A DNA stretch of 64,000 bases from Styela clava (lineage: Eukaryota): positions 17,794,001 through 17,858,000 of the forward strand of contig NC_135253.1 of assembly GCF_964204865.1 (NCBI RefSeq), read 5' to 3'. Position 1 is the stretch's first letter. The number at the start of each line of letters is the position of its first letter. A program made the position numbers and the translations under genes. Shown in pieces: positions 1-33,680 of the stretch. The notes below the pieces were generated by a model, which saw only the letters and a list, made by a program, of their open reading frames with translations, was not told where the DNA came from and ran no database searches.

Positions 1-69
1 CCTTTTTGTACATTGACAAGTATTACTGTGGAATATTTATAGTAGGCTTCAAATATCCCAAGTACTGTT

Positions 70-3000
70 ATGAAACATCTTCATTGGATTCTGATATTCT
101 ATTTATGGAAACTTGCGTCAACTCGGGTTATCATTGATGGTGAGTTGTGACTGACTGATACGTTTGATATTGCTAAGAATGTAAAGTCTACAACTGCATT
201 ATAATATTGCATTTTGGTGTAAGGTTGTTTGGTATAGTATACTCTTACCCTAATTAAGTCATCCTATTTAGATTTCAGTTTTGAATCAACAGCGAGAAAC
301 AGACGAAGTGCGATTGAGTTTTACGCTCTTATTCAGTGTCATCAACCATCAACAATTGCTCTTAGGGCATATGGAGATTACGGCTGTTTTTGCGGAGTTG
401 GTGGTAATGGTAACTCACCATTGGATGCGACTGATGGGTAATATGCACTATCATACGGTCAAGATATTTTTTATATTTTCTCGAATATCCTAATATACCG
501 ATTTCTCACCAATACAATGTACTTTGATATTTAAGGTGTTGCAAAACCCACGACGATTGCTATCGACCTCTGAAGAATTCGATATCAAAATCATACTCTG
601 AATCCTTCATGATGGCCATGTGTGGAGAGCTGTGTGTTCCATATTCGAAAACGTGCAAAAACGGAACTATTGTTTGTGGCAAGTGATTCTGCTTATTTAT
701 CTTTCCTCAGTTCGGAAATGGGATTTTCATATTTATTGCTATAAAGATGGAGGTCGATACCGCGATGTGGCTCAACCTTGCGTCAAACCGCGGCCTTCTC
801 GTCCAGTTACCTATCCATGAAATAGAAGGTGTTCTAGACTAGGCATGGACTTGATTGATGGCGAGGAAAAATCATAACCGACCAGCAGATACGTAAATCA
901 TCCTACGAAGGCGAGGAGTAAACCCCATAGTAAATACGACATGCTTATCTGTCAATTTGCTAACTTGCGTATGACAATCAACGGACAGTGACGAGCGTTT
1001 TTCTGCGAATGGCTCTTACCGGCGACTCTATTTTATGCTATTACTTACGTTGAGCCTAAATTGACTACAAAACTCAACAAAAAAAGTTTTTCCGGCAATG
1101 CACATTTTTCACGACTACCCATCTAAAACAAAATCTGGTATTTTTTCGGATATGCTATATTCCGTGCTCTAATTCAGTGTTCTTCAACCTTTTTTTATTG
1201 AAGTATACCTTTTACGGTTTTTCAAGAACTTTGTATACCTTACAAATACCAATGTTTATTTAAGACTCAAATAAACAATAAATTTTAAGCACATATTGTA
1301 CTGCAATATCATCATGCAATCTAATAGGCTAGTGACCGCAAGTTATAAATTTGACTGACTGCCTTAGCGTCGACGGGAATAATGTTGGACGTAAATCAAA
1401 CAAAGTGCATGGCATCCGAAATCACCAACCCAGACACATGCTCGTATTATCTATATAATTTGTGATGTAACAACGTGCTCACGTCGGTTCTTAGCGTTAA
1501 TAACATTTTATATTTCATGTGCGCCGCGTTTGCATTGTTGTATCTAATTGGATATTTTATAAGCTGTACACCTTTCGTATACCCTTTATCAGTTGTATAC
1601 CCAACTTATGGTCTGGTATACACTTGAGTATACTGTATACCCGGATGAAGAGCACTGCTCTAATTAATTCCCTATTATATGCTACCGATTTCATTGTCAT
1701 TATTCTGATTTTTGACATCTTAGGCACCACACCATACCAGCGCACGTAAAATTCGAAACGACACGTTACCAGTTGATTCGTCTACCTACAGTCTGTTGTT
1801 TGAACAATCAACATACATATATACATAATGATTCTCCTATATATATATATACAACGATTCACAGCCCAAAATTGGACACGGAGTGGACCTATGGATCGTT
1901 TCGTTATTTCGCTTCGCTTTTCTCTTCAACTATTATACCAAATGCTTTAATATTTTCAGTGATTAAATGGCTATTACATTTGTTCGTTTATTTTATATTT
2001 TCAGATTCGGATAATTCTCCACTTTCGATGGCTGTATGTGAATGCGATAAGGCAGCTTCAATATGTTTTGCAGGAGCAAGATCAACCTACGATAAACGAT
2101 TGGGAAATGTCGATCCCAATATTTGGTGTAAGAATTAGAATAATAGATTATCGATTACAATTTACTATTCATTTGTTAGAACACTTGTTGTGCAGTAGTA
2201 TGCAGATTGTCCGCCATTTTCACGGATAAATACACAATGAGACTGTCTGACGTAACAAAGTACAGTTTGATCTAACAAAACCTAATACTTTTGCTTGCCT
2301 TAGAATCTTAGATAATAGTGTCTTTTCTAATTATCGAATAAATTAGCAATATTAAGTTAACTTTAACAAATTAAAATTTTCTTTAGGTACTGAAGAATCA
2401 AATGTAACCGACCTACTCAGCCAGCTTGAAAATAAAGGTTTGTTGTTTTTGGGTTATACCCAAAGCAAAGATAAATTCACATATAACGTTAAGCAAGTCT
2501 GCAGTTACTTCAATTATAGTACTCTAGGATAGGATTTACATATTTAGGAAAGCCGATAAGACGGCTTATCCATATGGCGAACCACGGCCTCTCGTCCGGT
2601 TACCATTCCAAGTCGGGTATGGGATTAGTTTTTACTGTATTGTTTGTTTTCGGAAGCATGGACTTGGTGGTGGAGGAAGCCGTAACCGACCAGCGGTTAC
2701 GTGAATCACCCAACGACGGCGAGGAGTCCAGCAATCCTCTCGCACATAACCATCCCTGCATGGGATTCGAACCTGCGAACCCACGCAGAGTAGTTAAAGG
2801 TGCGGTGGCGAGCGTATTCCTAACGCCTAGCCCGTTGAGCCACACCGCCGCGCCGAACTATTCACGACTTTTCTATTTGAAAGAATTAAGATTCCGTTGC
2901 ATTGGAAATTAATCTGAGACGTTTACTGATTTTAATGAACGTGTAGTTCAGGTAATTTTGACATTCAAAGACATTTAGTCAGCACTGGAATATTGATTTT

Positions 3001-3839
3001 ATACGACAGATCACCCAAAGTCAACCGTGGCCTCTGAGCCTTCAAATCAAATACTACATGAACATTCAACCACAGGTAGGATGCATATTTCACATATATC
3101 CTTTATTGCGATTCACAAAAGTCAGATGTGTCAAAATGCCCGCTATGTCGACATGTGGGCTGTTTTCTTACCGCAACGTCAGCAATATCAATTTAAACTC
3201 AGCGCGACTTAGGCCACGTGGTTCTTGACTGATTTACTGTGTAATAATTTTTGGTAGTCGAATTTAGTTCATCGAATATTCCACAATTCAAATCGAATTA
3301 CAAGCCAAACTCAAGTCGTAAACTATAGTCCGTTCTAAATGGTAGATATCTCGGTTATAATCTGTTTTTCCTATGGCTATTCTATCAATTTTTTCACCAA
3401 ACAGGCGTTTCAAAATGTACAAAGAAAGATAAACGAAATGTCATTCAAATTAGAAGTTTATTTAAAAGGAGTATAGTACTAAATATATTGTTTGGGTCAT
3501 TTTCAAATTCAAATTACAGCCGACTTGGAGGTAACCCCCTACACGAACTGGTCACTTACCAAAGCAAAAATATTTGAAGAAAATTTCGGAGATGAAGGCA
3601 TGTACGATAACACATACAACGATGACGTAATACAGCATCTTCCAGTATACCCACGTTTACCAAATGCAACTGAAGATACAGTTTTACTCGCTCGACTCAG
3701 AGTATTTGAAGGGGAAATTACTGAAAAGTCACCAGGAGGAAGTGGAAGTCGTGTGAAACAAAACCTCATTTTATTAGTTCTGCCTATGTTTCAATGGATA
3801 AGTCTATTTTATGAATCTATTTATTCGAATATATCATGA
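70..3839 (+). CDS. Secretory phospholipase A2 (group I/II-like) with C-terminal extension; 7 exons: 70-139, 272-437, 536-678, 2005-2127, 2387-2437, 3010-3075, 3520-3839 (~312 aa)
   Basis: Spliced translation gives a signal-like N-terminus MKHLHWILIFYLWKLAS, propeptide RNRR|SAIEFYALIQC, Ca-loop YGCFCGVGG, catalytic CCKTHDDCY, CECDKAASICF and 14 Cys in the mature domain. All exon phases are compatible. Exons 5-7 are less certain than 1-4. Confidence 0.88.
780..925 (-). mobile_element. Degenerate fragment of the tRNA-derived SINE family
   Basis: Segments gcatggacttg, taaccgaccagc and ggcgaggagt align in order with the SINE at 2525-2854. Confidence 0.7.
1175..1657. mobile_element. Non-autonomous hAT-type MITE (483 bp) in PLA2 intron 3
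   Basis: TIRs CAGTGTTCTTCAACC / CAGTGCTCTTCATCC; perfect 8-bp TSD CTCTAATT at 1167-1174 and 1658-1665. Confidence 0.9.
2525..2854 (-). mobile_element. tRNA-derived SINE, young copy
   Basis: Minus strand starts GGCGCGGCGGTGTGGCTCAACGGG (A box), has B box GTTCGAATCC and an (ATCCT)n tail; nearly identical to 62276-62622. Confidence 0.92.
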
Positions 3840-4910
3840 TACAGACTATATTCTGTTTTGTCATTTCCCATCGATTTTGAGTATGTAATAATTGAGTAAA
3901 GTAATTACATTACATCAATACAAATCTTCCTGCGCTGGGATCAGAATAAGATATGCGCAAGAGAACCTTGTACCACCTTACACCCTGGGTTGCGCGGACA
4001 TATCAATTTCATGTACACATATCGATTGGCTTACTATACCATATCGTTCATTATGATCACCCAAAAACAGGGGGGTGGAAAATTTATAGTCGATATCGCT
4101 GACTTGTTCCAATAGAGACGCCGGTTCGAGCAATTATAAGCACTAAAAACGGAAGTATTGTAAACAGCACTACCGGCTTGTAGTGGGGAATTGATTGCAA
4201 CCGAAAGCGACGAGCTCAAATAACACATTACCAACGACATTTCGACAACGCACGCGACATTTTGACGAGTATACCATTTTTCCTACGGTTCTGAGCGATT
4301 TTATAAAGATAAATAAAAGAAAACTCAATACTGGCAAAATAAAATATATTGTAGCAAGTTTAATAATAATAATAGTGGTCAATAGGTGTTTGAGTGTAAT
4401 ATAAATCAACAGTATGCGTATTGCGTATATTCATATAGACCCAACGATTTGAATGGAAACTTGCGAAACCTCCGTACTGTACTGGTGGAACACTTGGTTG
4501 CCGAAGAACTCCGGTTAAAAATCGCTGGACTAGTAAACATGATCTGAATCGCACACCTTGGTATGCCTTCAATCTCATAGAGACAATCTCATAAAATTCA
4601 GTTCCCATTCCCAACCCTGACTGAAATCACCAGGACCACACATACACAACCGCTGACATCGCATACCAAAGTAGCACCCAGAATGCATTGCCTATGGATT
4701 ACACATAACAACTTGTTAAAACATTGAGTAGGATACATATTGCAAGTATAACCGTTAACTCAATTTCCCTTTGCTAAATGGGGGAAATCCTTTACACATC
4801 CGGTTTAATATTTTTTTTTACAAAATGCAGTGTGTACACGACAAAGACGTTTTACGCTAGTAAAGCAGGATATATATATAGCTATTTTGAAGTTTGCAGT
4901 TAGCAGAGAA

Positions 4911-30741: not shown

Positions 30742-33096
30742 TCATGGGAGTTCATATGGAGCTAACTCTCTGGTCATCTTCCCTCGCAGTTTCTCTTTTC
30801 TTTTCTCAGCAACCTCTTGCATGTGTATTTCCTCTTCTTTTTGTTTAACTTTGATTTCTCTCATTCTCACTTTTTCGTCTTCCTTATGTTCTTTTATGAG
30901 TTGTTTTCTCCATTGATCTTCTATCACTCGCTGAAGATTGAGGGCATTTCTTTTATGAAATTCAGTTGATATTTTATCTGTATTATTAGGTATTTCAAGA
31001 TGATCTTTCAAAGTTGTCCGGTTTGGTGGAGGCTTTTGTCTTGGCGATGTGACAGAATGCTTTGCCTGTTTACCTGGTGATGTTTCTTTCGTTCTTGGAC
31101 TGATTCGAGTGCTTTGGCGAGTATCGCTATGAAAAGCTTGGGAAGAAGGGTTAGCCAGTGAAGATGGGCTTCTTGGAATAGGAAGAGTTGGTAACAGGAA
31201 ATGATCTGTAAGTGAATGCGATATACGAGACCATATATTTAATGATGTGCTGCTTCTTATGGTTTTGGTAAAATCAGGATATTCAACTTGTCCTACACGT
31301 AAGGCTTCCAGAACACAATCTTCAGTCGCTGCAGAATCTTGTAAAGATACGATTAAGGACCAAGCAGCAGAGCGCATTCCTTCTTTTAGTTTATCTTCTC
31401 GAAGTGCATGTGTCAAATGCAGCAAACCAGAAAGTGCCCCGTAACGTACTTTCCAACTCCAGTCTGCTGGATTGGAGCCAGCACCCCTAGATGAAGTTTT
31501 GTCATAAGGATCGATGCGAGGATTACGATATTCAAGTAGATCAACTAGTCCGCAACTTTCAATACAAAAATTAGGAACGCCAGCTCGAAAAGTAGTTACA
31601 TCAGCATCCAGCCATTTACCGAGCATGGCTAATTTCTGTATTGGAGCTGTTGCCCCATGAAGACAAATATCTGTCAAAATTTGAGAATACTGATAGGCGA
31701 TTTCCCATCCCCAAGCGGATATTCCAGTTACTATTGACTCGCTCATTTCACTCCTGGGAGTGTTAGGATTTGAAATACCTGACCCTCGGGTGGGAGTCAA
31801 TCGCGATGTTCCTGGCAAGTTAGAACTTTGATTATAAGTATTAGTTTTCGAGCGATTCATTTCAGATTGAAAATTACTTTCGGCAGTTGTGTTTCTTTTT
31901 GTGCTACGTCCACGAGGCGTTTTGCCAAGAGATGAATCAAAATCAGCCATCATTCCCTGCATAATATTTTGAAAAGAGTCGGATTGAACATCTCGTGCTG
32001 ATTCCTCTAAATTATCTGTTGCATTGCCAGCTGTATATTTTTTTGGAGAAGCAGTTGACATCATGAATTCTGTTGTTCTCGGTGTTGCTATTTGGCTTAT
32101 AGGAACAGCGACTCCTCTTGCCAGATCTTGAAAACTCCTGCAAACAAATGAATTGGCTTTTGCAGAATCCCCTAATATTGACAAAGCAAAAAGTGAGTCT
32201 ACCCAATCTTCTTGACAAAAATCTTTCGCACAAATTAGAACATCAAGAATAGCTCTTTTCAAACCAATTTCTTTATCTTTGCATCGCCATACATGAAGCG
32301 CTTGATACACAATCGGTCTTATCAGAATCGTAGGCATCACATTAGGGTCGTCTTCATTTTGTTTTGTTTGAGATTCCGTTGTATGTGGGGCAGTAATAAT
32401 ACCTCCAACTCGAGATATGAATCGGATTGCGAGCCAAACTCCAGGGTAAGATTTATACAGCATTTCATGGTCTTGTATTCCTTCTAAATAGGTTGATAAA
32501 CGAGATTTAAATTCATCTAATTGGATGAGATTATTAACCAAGTGATGATAATATAATCTGACAAAAACTAAAAATCCCATTTTTAAAAGTCTGATTTCAG
32601 CTGTTCTTAGTTGAGTGCTGTTAATGGTATCAGTACGTAACCAGTATAAAGTACTTTCAGCAAGAAAAAACAAAGTTGGTATATTTTCTTCATGGACAGG
32701 TGCATGGTTCAGTGACTGGCACAATATTTCAAAACAGTCTTCTTGCAATTTTCCTTTACATTGTGCTAGAATTGCAAGTTCAGACCAAGCCATTGGTAAG
32801 TCAACATGATCTCCTTCTCCTTGAGTTAGAATTCCTGCTCTTCTCTTACTGTGAATGAGAATCCTTTCAGCTTCTGCTCTCAGTGGTTCTTGGCCCTCAA
32901 AAGTCGATGCATTATATCGCTGGACAAACTTTTCACAAACCTCTAAAGGGTTTGCACGAATGTGAGCTCCGGCAGCAGCTGCTGCTGCATTTTCTCGTGC
33001 ATAGTTTTGTCGTAATAATCGTTCCTGCAAAGCCAATCGTTGGCTGTGTGATATGATGCCAAATTTATGGACAATTGGAATTTTCAAGACTGGCAT
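30742..33096 (-). CDS. TMEM232: Transmembrane protein 232-like, single-exon CDS (784 aa)
   Basis: Uninterrupted ORF; LPMAWSELAILAQCKGKLQE, LFFLAES.LY and W.W...Y.Y..IL..ICL match recalled vertebrate TMEM232. Confidence 0.88.
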   Translation of the reverse strand: MPVLKIPIVHKFGIISHSQRLALQERLLRQNYARENAAAAAAGAHIRANPLEVCEKFVQRYNASTFEGQEPLRAEAERILIHSKRRAGILTQGEGDHVDLPMAWSELAILAQCKGKLQEDCFEILCQSLNHAPVHEENIPTLFFLAESTLYWLRTDTINSTQLRTAEIRLLKMGFLVFVRLYYHHLVNNLIQLDEFKSRLSTYLEGIQDHEMLYKSYPGVWLAIRFISRVGGIITAPHTTESQTKQNEDDPNVMPTILIRPIVYQALHVWRCKDKEIGLKRAILDVLICAKDFCQEDWVDSLFALSILGDSAKANSFVCRSFQDLARGVAVPISQIATPRTTEFMMSTASPKKYTAGNATDNLEESARDVQSDSFQNIMQGMMADFDSSLGKTPRGRSTKRNTTAESNFQSEMNRSKTNTYNQSSNLPGTSRLTPTRGSGISNPNTPRSEMSESIVTGISAWGWEIAYQYSQILTDICLHGATAPIQKLAMLGKWLDADVTTFRAGVPNFCIESCGLVDLLEYRNPRIDPYDKTSSRGAGSNPADWSWKVRYGALSGLLHLTHALREDKLKEGMRSAAWSLIVSLQDSAATEDCVLEALRVGQVEYPDFTKTIRSSTSLNIWSRISHSLTDHFLLPTLPIPRSPSSLANPSSQAFHSDTRQSTRISPRTKETSPGKQAKHSVTSPRQKPPPNRTTLKDHLEIPNNTDKISTEFHKRNALNLQRVIEDQWRKQLIKEHKEDEKVRMREIKVKQKEEEIHMQEVAEKRKEKLRGKMTRELAPYELP

Positions 33097-33680
33097 TATT
33101 GGTTGATTTGGGTTAGTATGGAAGACTTAAGGATACTTCACATTGTTATGACTATATTCAAATGGTAAAAATAAATTTCTAATTGATTAAAATTATCTGT
33201 TTTTAAAGTAAAAATTTAAAATGAATTTTTCCATTCACATGGATATTTGATAAATTATTTCTGGCCTATGTCAAACCATATCCTATGTTCGAGAACCACT
33301 GTCTGGTTCTAGTGTATTATATTTTACCTCAATATTCAAGTATCAAATGTTAGAATGACTGATAACTATCAATTAACAACGCCATGAAAGATGTTATAAT
33401 AAGACGTAGGTTTATTAATATAGCTATTTAGCTAAACAAAAACGCATATATATCCAAGATGCAACAAAACTACATAGCCTACTTTAAATTGATTGATTGA
33501 TTAAAATAATAAGAATACCTAAAGTTATCAACCTATCCAGATTATGTATAGCCTGAACAAGATCTTTGACGACTAGGCCACTGTTTGCCGGTATCTGACT
33601 ATATAAACTAATTGAAAAAAACAACCTATACTTAATTAGAATTAAACTTTTCAACGAAACGCTATCGAGGCGGAAAGTAT

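What the first reader, a model, noticed from the sequence alone, without database searches (positions are those of the whole stretch)
2005..3839. Secretory PLA2 with a stalk and GPI-signal-like tail, and a possible soluble/anchored splice switch
Seen: after the PLA2 domain the donor TGG T|GTAAGA (2127) joins three phase-1 exons encoding an acidic Ser/Thr-rich stalk ending SPGGSGSRVKQ-NLILLVLPMFQWISLFY-ESIYSNIS*. If the intron is not spliced, the frame ends IWCKN* at 2138 (~170 aa). Both forms keep the 14th Cys (T|GT). Known: group I/II sPLA2s are usually small soluble enzymes, and GPI signals are small residues, a spacer, then a hydrophobic end. Inference: a surface-tethered, catalytically intact sPLA2 (His-Asp and Ca loop present) with a soluble isoform from the same gene.
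Basis: partly seen in the sequence, partly recalled or inferred. Interest (0 to 1): 0.7.

Follow-up and report, generated by a model that had tools for sequence, protein, structure and literature searches.

The report
Sea-squirt phospholipase on a lipid tether
A sea-squirt gene encodes a pancreatic-type lipid-digesting enzyme joined to a long stalk that ends in a likely lipid (GPI) anchor signal, a layout kept in four sea-squirt species and unusual for this normally small, free enzyme; the proposed soluble splice form found no support.

Summary
The gene is Styela clava LOC144422036; my seven-exon model equals NCBI's 312-aa protein. All six splice joins appear in public transcript-type contigs, including 2127>2387>3010>3520. 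The enzyme domain keeps the His-Asp site, the Ca loop and a furin-type propeptide, and folds like pancreatic PLA2. Orthologues in Ciona, Phallusia and Clavelina (4 of 4 species, three ascidian orders) also end in a polar stalk, small residues and a hydrophobic C-terminus, though the stalks share no alignable sequence. GPI anchoring is therefore likely (about 0.7) but untested. Styela's signal is the least typical of the four, and RNA covers it only to residue 294. The splice switch is not supported: one contig per run joins across intron 4 in 4 of 4 runs. Reading Cys from T|GT is automatic at any phase-1 GT donor, 4 of this gene's 6 introns stop within three codons, and a paralogue with a different tail has the same intron. 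Tail-less soluble enzymes come from paralogues. The 14 Cys are not the canonical set. Prior art: Oikopleura oikosin 44, a PLA2-domain protein predicted to be GPI-anchored. Verdict: new variant of a known kind.

The parts
70..139 (+). Exon 1 coding part: likely signal peptide (residues 1-~19)
   Evidence: In-frame stops upstream of the ATG; KD11 window 1.65; helix 2-17 in model; join 138>271 in 4 of 4 runs. Cleavage site inferred.
272..437 (+). Exon 2: propeptide, mature N-terminal helix with Cys11, Ca2+ loop YGCFCGVGG
   Evidence: joins in 4 of 4 runs
295..306 (+). RNRR, furin-type propeptide cleavage motif before S36
   Evidence: R32, R34, R35 invariant in alignment A3 of 4 rows; cleavage inferred
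536..678 (+). Exon 3: catalytic CCKTHDDCY helix, loop with extra C108/C112, Cys77 and Cys84 equivalents
679..2004 (+). Intron 3 with a GC donor; low-depth intronic contigs
   Evidence: join 677>2004 reads GC..AG when the cut is moved one base; contigs 649-1229 (depth 4.8) and 649-828 (depth 5.2)
2005..2127 (+). Exon 4: CECD helix with catalytic D141; ends in the first base of the last domain Cys
2128..2386 (+). Intron 4 (the proposed switch): read-through stop TAG at 2136-2138, AATAAA at 2337-2342
   Evidence: spliced out in 4 of 4 runs; AATAAA occurs in 81 of 191 AT-rich tiles of this length
2387..2437 (+). Exon 5: completes Cys168; short helix; resembles the same exon of the C14 paralogue
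3010..3075 (+). Exon 6: Ser/Thr-rich part of the stalk
3520..3839 (+). Exon 7: acidic stalk, GPI-like signal, stop
   Evidence: join in 4 of 6 distinct runs; 7 of 10 differences in a second allele are synonymous; single copy in the genome search
3735..3749 (+). GGSGS (279-283): candidate omega site, best S281 or G280
   Evidence: rule scan; covered by RNA-type contigs in 3 runs; one allele has Ala at 282, still small
3765..3812 (+). Hydrophobic segment L289-Y304, followed by 8 mostly polar residues without Lys/Arg
   Evidence: KD15 2.19; RNA-type contigs cover it to 3784; no difference in X10 from 3752 to 3901

Best explanation
This Styela clava gene splices a pancreatic-type phospholipase A2 domain to a stalk of about 113 residues and a C-terminal signal that is likely swapped for a GPI lipid anchor, so the enzyme would sit tethered on the cell surface rather than switch to a soluble form by splicing. 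Shown: gene structure, splicing through residue 294, intact catalytic and Ca-binding residues, and the same layout in orthologues. Inferred steps: the signal peptide takes it into the ER; GPI transamidase cuts after S281 (or G280) and adds the anchor; sequons N121, N173, N216 and N255 are glycosylated; a furin-type protease cuts RNRR|S36 and frees the N-terminus; the flexible acidic stalk lets the domain (net charge -3) reach past the cell coat. I think it most likely works as a retained ectoenzyme on an epithelium facing food or seawater, hydrolysing phospholipid of passing particles where a free enzyme would be washed away. Tissue and substrate are untested. Soluble activity would come from tail-less paralogues or from shedding.
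For: Six of six joins in transcript-type contigs; one 1047-nt contig spans exon 1 to position 3768. The domain matches PF00068 at 2.2e-21 and pancreatic PLA2 by sequence and fold (E 2.6e-9). The orthologue group is starred with 3 species (96/88) and 89/84 with 4. All 4 species end in small residues plus a hydrophobic C-terminus: Ciona omega candidates lie 25-27 residues from the end, Phallusia 27-28, Clavelina 29-30, Styela 31-33; the textbook signal is 20-30 residues (PMC7125958). Stalks of 125-349 residues show no pairwise similarity among the three compared (best E 0.94), so the layout rather than the sequence is kept. Clavelina was found after this reading was formed. No Lys/Arg follows the hydrophobic segment in the three species scanned for it, and in Ciona, Phallusia and Clavelina the segment reaches within 0-2 residues of the end. 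Of 150 representatives, 11 have a hydrophobic end (KD13 >= 1.5): 9 of 13 in the query's wider clade and 2 of the other 137. Exon 7 looks constrained: 7 of 10 differences in a second allele are synonymous, P 0.001-0.006. Paralogues on C13 and C4 stop 17 and 0 residues after the domain.
Against: No experiment and no trained GPI predictor; my scan is a hand rule. Styela's signal is atypical: 31 residues after the best omega, one over the textbook range; Pro and Gln in the core; 8 trailing residues including Glu. Phallusia's end scores 1.41, under my 1.5 cut-off. Support for the four-species clade is under the starred level in the mixture-model tree and neither bootstrap had fully settled. Three of the four orthologue proteins are genome annotations whose C-termini I did not check against RNA. 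In 2 of 6 RNA-type runs the contig stops in or at the end of exon 6 (3062, 3075), unexplained. Nothing here shows tissue or substrate; an acidic domain argues against a group IIA-style antibacterial role but does not prove a digestive one.
Confidence: 0.65

Rival explanations
1. One reading: retention of intron 4, or polyadenylation inside it, makes a regulated 170-aa soluble enzyme from the same gene.
For: The unspliced frame keeps all 14 Cys and stops at 2136-2138, so such a protein would be complete; an AATAAA lies at 2337. Contigs drop rare variants, and tissues or stages that were not sampled could differ.
Against: A single contig joins 2127>2387 in 4 of 4 runs at depth 25-51 without a break there, while the GC donor of intron 3 breaks contigs in 2 of 4 runs and gives intronic contigs at depth about 5. 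T|GT always reads Cys; 4 of 6 introns stop within 3 codons; 81 of 191 AT-rich tiles hold AATAAA. The C14 paralogue has the same split Cys and a similar exon 5 but a different tail. Tail-less paralogues exist.
Confidence: 0.08
2. In Styela the tail is an uncleaved type I membrane span with a short cytosolic end, whose YSNI (308-311) could act as a tyrosine sorting motif.
For: Eight residues follow the hydrophobic core, and the best omega lies one residue beyond the textbook range. YxxI fits the YxxPhi pattern (recalled).
Against: The core is 16 residues with Pro and Gln; the rough insertion sum is +1.4 for 16 and +4.3 for 19 residues (recalled scale, no position weights). Basic residues R284 and K286 lie on the luminal side and none after it. 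Orthologues have 0-2 residues after the segment.
Confidence: 0.1
3. The family is GPI-anchored but the Styela signal has decayed, so the protein is secreted with its stalk, clipped, or held in the ER.
For: Styela has the longest and least terminal signal of the four species and the longest domain branch in its clade.
Against: Small-residue cluster, spacer and hydrophobic core are all present; exon 7 variation is mostly synonymous; X10 has the same frame and stop.
Confidence: 0.1
4. It is anchored as proposed but acts in cis, remodelling its own cell's outer leaflet or releasing signalling lipids (for example on gametes or blood cells), not on passing particles.
For: A stalk modelled at low confidence (pLDDT under 50 over most of 194-284) could fold back. 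Mammalian sPLA2s act on adjacent cell membranes, and group X is furin-activated (PMC3111613; PMC7603386).
Against: Stalks of 113 to over 300 residues are longer than a cis role seems to need (inference); the nearest solved relatives are digestive enzymes. No direct evidence either way.
Confidence: 0.2

Closest known systems
Group IB pancreatic sPLA2 (PLA2G1B; PF00068, conventional I/II/V/X collection)
   Same: His-Asp site, Ca loop, Cys11-Cys77 equivalents, N-terminal propeptide, fold
   Different: Lacks the C61-C91 pair; two extra Cys in Styela; furin-type rather than trypsin-type site; 144-residue tail with a GPI-like end, where the mammalian enzymes are 14-19 kDa and soluble (PMC3111613)
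Oikopleura oikosin 44 (Hosp et al. 2012, PMC3390340)
   Same: Tunicate protein with a PLA2 domain, predicted GPI-anchored
   Different: A prediction in one sentence of a house-proteome paper; I did not have its sequence, so orthology and catalytic state are unknown; appendicularian house epithelium
sPLA2-IIF and sPLA2-III (C-terminally extended sPLA2s)
   Same: sPLA2 domain with a C-terminal extension
   Different: IIF has a 30-residue tail with a Cys; III is a bee-venom-type domain processed to a domain-only form; the passages read describe neither as GPI-anchored
Ascidian sister paralogue (Ciona XP_026689661; Styela C14 gene model)
   Same: Sister group in the tree (92/83); same phase-1 intron in the last Cys in Styela and a similar exon 5
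   Different: Tail of Cys-rich repeats (called galaxin-like from recall), no hydrophobic end
GPI-anchored ectoenzymes in general
   Same: N-terminal signal, small omega residues, spacer and hydrophobic end (PMC7125958)
   Different: Anchoring not shown here; signal is 31-33 residues with a polar end

Membership tests
Conventional sPLA2 (I/II/V/X, PF00068) | Ca2+ loop XCGXGG and catalytic DXCCXXHD | tested here: met
   FCGVGG and DGCCKTHD; D141 (definition PMC3111613)
Conventional sPLA2 (I/II/V/X, PF00068) | Pfam score over cut-off and matching fold | tested here: met
   76.9 bits against 32.1; Foldseek top hits pancreatic PLA2, TM by target 0.83-0.89
Conventional sPLA2 (I/II/V/X, PF00068) | Six absolutely conserved disulfides | tested here: not met
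   Five of six Cys pairs present; the 61-91 pair (numbering recalled) is absent in Styela, and Cys91 is absent in the Ciona, Phallusia and Clavelina orthologues. So not filed as a strict vertebrate group member.
Conventional sPLA2 (I/II/V/X, PF00068) | Small (14-19 kDa) soluble enzyme | tested here: not met
   312-aa spliced product with a 144-residue tail
Group I sPLA2 | Cys11-Cys77 pair and N-terminal propeptide | tested here: met
   C46 is residue 11 after RR|S36; C119 aligns with the pancreatic Cys77
Group I sPLA2 | Ca2+-dependent sn-2 hydrolysis | not testable with these tools
   Residues intact; no assay
GPI-anchored proteins | N-terminal signal peptide | tested here: inconclusive
   KD11 1.65 in Styela, 2.66 in Ciona, 2.06 in Phallusia; no SignalP available
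GPI-anchored proteins | Small omega and omega+2 residues | tested here: met
   GGS, GSG, SGS at 279-281; candidates in all four species
GPI-anchored proteins | Signal of 20-30 residues ending in a hydrophobic stretch | tested here: inconclusive
   Styela 31-33 residues with 8 trailing polar residues; orthologues 25-30 with the stretch at the end
GPI-anchored proteins | No basic cytosolic tail after the hydrophobic stretch | tested here: met
   No Lys/Arg after it in Styela, Ciona or Phallusia; Clavelina ends IAQ
GPI-anchored proteins | Covalent GPI, PI-PLC release | not testable with these tools
   needs bench work
Soluble/anchored splice-switch genes | Both isoforms detected as transcripts | tested here: not met
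   Only the spliced join is seen, in 4 of 4 runs; contigs can drop rare forms

The most novel reading that the evidence does not exclude
Ascidians of all three orders keep one orthologous pancreatic-type sPLA2 that is GPI-anchored at the end of a fast-evolving stalk: a surface-tethered, furin-activated ectoenzyme form of a family known as small soluble proteins. It arose by putting a new tail behind an old phase-1 exon boundary, while the sister paralogue took Cys-rich repeats. Seven unnamed marine proteins with GPI-like ends fall in the same wider clade, so the design may be wider still.
Probability: 0.6. Interest if true: 0.6.

Novelty: new variant of a known kind. Interest (0 to 1): 0.45.

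Why it matters
Conventional sPLA2s are treated as diffusible enzymes that must find a membrane. A natural GPI-tethered, catalytically intact form kept across ascidian orders would give a direct test of whether a tethered sPLA2 acts on its own cell or on outside lipid, and of how such a cell avoids digesting itself. It would also show tail swapping at a fixed exon boundary in the sister group of vertebrates. The effect is limited: the domain is ordinary, a predicted GPI-anchored PLA2 is already noted in Oikopleura, and the most striking claim, the splice switch, did not hold up.

Tried and rejected
No RNA-type contig covers 3785-3839 or the 3' UTR in 6 of 6 runs laid; contigs stop at 3744, 3768, 3784 and 3784, and at 3062 and 3075 in two runs, while X10 continues to 3901. 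The stops are not at one place across studies and the tool filters records, so I draw nothing from this gap. The run search listed no holder on record as RNA and only contigs, no raw reads, so isoform levels and 3' ends could not be measured. Single-sequence folding gave a useless model (pLDDT 32); the alignment-based model was used, and its low stalk confidence partly reflects few tail rows. The tail had no Pfam hit, no Atlas hit and no second copy in the genome. The single-sequence homologue search found only the protein itself. My first script had two exon boundaries off by one and gave a broken frame, corrected. Rejected: a second PLA2 domain in the tail, as in otoconin-90 (no Cys in the tail); the intronic AATAAA as evidence. 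Trees left out P0009 and P0059 (partial domains; 148 of 150 rows) and used subsets of 46 and 30 rows. P0059, a 61-aa fragment 65-67% identical to exon 2, has no tail to test. Earlier scan findings: none returned. The search for a paper on a 31-residue GPI signal in Thy-1 found none, so that recalled precedent is not used. No complex prediction was run: no binding claim is made. The oikosin 44 sequence was not in the supplements searched.
Full report
Observation. The window lies at G000:C4:17794001-17858000. Seven exons (70-139, 272-437, 536-678, 2005-2127, 2387-2437, 3010-3075, 3520-3839) give a 312-residue frame; intron 3 has a GC donor and introns 3-6 are phase 1. The last exon retrieved one protein among 185 candidates, NCBI XP_077967895.1 of Styela clava, 'uncharacterized', identical to my model.

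Splicing. I laid 6 of the 9 RNA-type runs listed, from three studies; all are assembled contigs and the RNA label is the tool's guess, but they skip introns at GT..AG ends. In one search the first five joins are in 4 of 4 runs and the sixth in 3 of 4; one 1047-nt contig runs from before exon 1 to 3768. One search, which covered only 2870-4700, adds the sixth join in X6. In all, 4 of 6 runs from three studies show it; in X1 and X3 the contig stops at 3075 and 3062, which I cannot explain. RNA support ends at 3784, so it covers the omega region, the spacer and six residues of the hydrophobic core. The last 18 residues rest on the genome, on NCBI's model and on the unspliced X10 contig, which has no difference from 3752 to 3901 and may come from the source sample.

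The switch. One contig per run joins 2127>2387 at depth 25-51 in 4 of 4 runs, with no break at the donor. There is an internal control: at the GC donor of intron 3 the contigs of X1 and X4 end at 678, and intronic contigs branch off at depth 4.8 and 5.2. So retention at roughly a tenth to a quarter of the spliced depth was visible elsewhere in this gene. Contigs can still drop rarer forms. The sequence arguments for a short form are weak. A phase-1 GT donor after T must read TGT. Retained introns 1, 2, 3 and 4 stop after 3, 1, 2 and 3 added residues; 11% of 288 donor-like sites stop within two codons; AATAAA, present at 2337, occurs in 81 of 191 AT-rich tiles of intron-4 length. The paralogue on C14 splits its last Cys at the same phase-1 donor and continues into a 48-nt exon resembling exon 5 (CTANPDLRDL against CTEESNVTDL), then Cys-rich repeats (this model is my prediction, not RNA-checked). 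Two other paralogues end 17 and 0 residues after the last Cys, in the same exon. Two more (L016, L019) I did not model to their ends. The boundary is thus an old exon edge behind which paralogues carry different tails.

The enzyme. PF00068 scores 76.9 bits against a cut-off of 32.1. The best solved matches are pancreatic pro-PLA2 and PLA2 by sequence (8.7e-22) and by fold (E 2.6e-9, from a 115-row model with domain blocks at pLDDT 84-98). H84, D85, Y88, Y115, D141 and the Ca loop match columns conserved in 105-115 of 115 rows. RNRR precedes S36, and C46 is then residue 11. The 14 Cys are not the textbook set: position 133 is Leu where 75 of 115 rows have Cys, and C108 and C112 are extra; Ciona and Phallusia have 12. 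The mature domain is acidic (net -3, pI 5.2).

The tail. It has 144 residues, net charge -12, no Cys, Ser/Thr 0.29 in 169-220 and 0.07 in 221-275. The best omega candidates are G279-S281, 33-31 residues from the end; the core L289-Y304 is followed by eight residues without Lys or Arg. Kinoshita 2020 (PMC7125958; passages) gives 20-30 residues with small omega and omega+2, so Styela is borderline. A second allele differs at 10 places in exon 7, 7 of them synonymous, against an expected share of 0.22-0.27 (P 0.001-0.006); G282A stays small. Pooling the visible differences of all runs gives 8 of 12, but some rows of those tables were hidden.

Relatives. Among 150 representatives the best full-length hits are Ciona XP_078494984.1 (293 aa) and Phallusia CAB3264919.1 (393 aa); a profile search then added Clavelina LOC143468693 (523 aa) and a second Ciona sequence. 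The species cover Stolidobranchia, Phlebobranchia and Aplousobranchia. On the domain alone they group together: 96/88 starred for three species (46 rows) and 89/84 for four (30 rows, mixture model); neither bootstrap had fully settled. All four species have a basic propeptide site, a polar stalk, small residues 25-33 from the end and a hydrophobic C-terminus. The three stalks compared do not align (best E 0.94). By my cut-off (KD13 >= 1.5 in the last 30 residues) 11 of 150 representatives have such an end: 9 of 13 in the query's wider clade (FastTree 0.98) and 2 of the other 137; Phallusia misses the cut-off at 1.41. Seven unnamed marine proteins with GPI-like ends form their own branch (97/93; 95/79); whether the anchor arose once is open, because the Cys-repeat paralogues lie between.

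Mechanism. Shown: structure, splicing, intact active site, conserved layout. Inferred: ER entry, GPI transfer at S281 or G280, glycosylation, furin-type activation, surface display. I put anchoring at about 0.7 and the whole reading at 0.65. For function I favour a retained ectoenzyme acting on lipid that passes an epithelium; this rests on kinship to digestive enzymes and on stalk length, with no tissue data. A cis role is the main functional rival.

Prior knowledge. Hosp et al. 2012 (PMC3390340; passages, section 7 and a supplement search) state that oikosin 44 has a PLA2 domain and is predicted to be GPI-anchored, and suggest defence or pre-digestion for the PLA2 oikosins. PMC3111613 and PMC7603386 (passages) describe conventional sPLA2s as small and secreted, with extended IIF and III. 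PMC9876418 (passages) notes that most GPI signals in its Plasmodium sets end 0-3 residues from the terminus and four lie 5-14 away. Ten searches (listings only, apart from the five papers named) found no paper on this ascidian gene and none showing a GPI-anchored conventional sPLA2 by experiment. The library lacks most subscription journals, and one search missed the Oikopleura paper, so these blanks are weak. Supplements of bioRxiv preprints were closed and figure schemas could not be seen. Recalled, not from calls: PLA2 Cys numbering, the galaxin-like label, the YxxPhi motif, the positive-inside rule and both hydrophobicity scales.

Verdict. The tethered form is real as a transcript and likely GPI-anchored; the splice switch is unsupported. 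New variant of a known kind; interest 0.45.

Noticed in passing
window 679-1229: Intron 3 has a GC donor, and its 5' part appears in low-depth contigs in all four runs (two start inside exon 3). Retention would stop after 128 residues, before D141, giving an inactive product; likely slow splicing.
   Followed up: partly
window 3075: In run X1 the main contig ends exactly at the exon 6 donor and no exon 7 contig is listed; X3 stops at 3062. It could be a branch between divergent exon 7 alleles, a filter, or another 3' end. Retaining intron 6 would give a 251-residue protein without the anchor signal.
   Followed up: partly
window 3589-3751: Exon 7 carries a divergent allele: X10 has 10 differences in 3611-3751 and none in 2870-3610; X8 has 9 in 3516-3744.
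   Followed up: partly
window exon 3, residues 108 and 112: Styela-specific CxxxC in a predicted helix while the usual 61-91 pair is lost; a new disulfide or free thiols for dimers.
   Followed up: partly
L015:2227-4204 (G000:C14): Paralogue with Cys-rich tail whose predicted frame ends in HEDL, resembling an ER-retention signal (recalled pattern); the Ciona counterpart has more repeats and no such end. Model not RNA-checked.
   Followed up: partly
window about 7000-28300: Tandem array of five near-identical units, about 4.5 kb apart (first gap 5.5 kb), each with a tetraspanin-matching frame on the minus strand; four also show a long MFS transporter-like frame on the plus strand. Recent duplication or assembly artefact.
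   Followed up: no
window 30745-33126 (-): 794-codon uninterrupted frame matching TMEM232 (PF15877, 4.6e-81).
   Followed up: no
window about 2525-2855: High-copy repeat in intron 5 with very high depth in RNA-type contigs, likely a SINE; a related short stretch lies near 840-930.
   Followed up: no
P0018, P0020, P0024, P0028, P0034, P0107, P0134; P0097: Unnamed marine sPLA2s with GPI-like ends: seven form one branch near the ascidian genes; P0097 lies outside, suggesting an independent gain.
   Followed up: partly
window position 1 and upstream: The X2 contig has 110 bases before window position 1, so the 5' UTR extends beyond the window.
   Followed up: no
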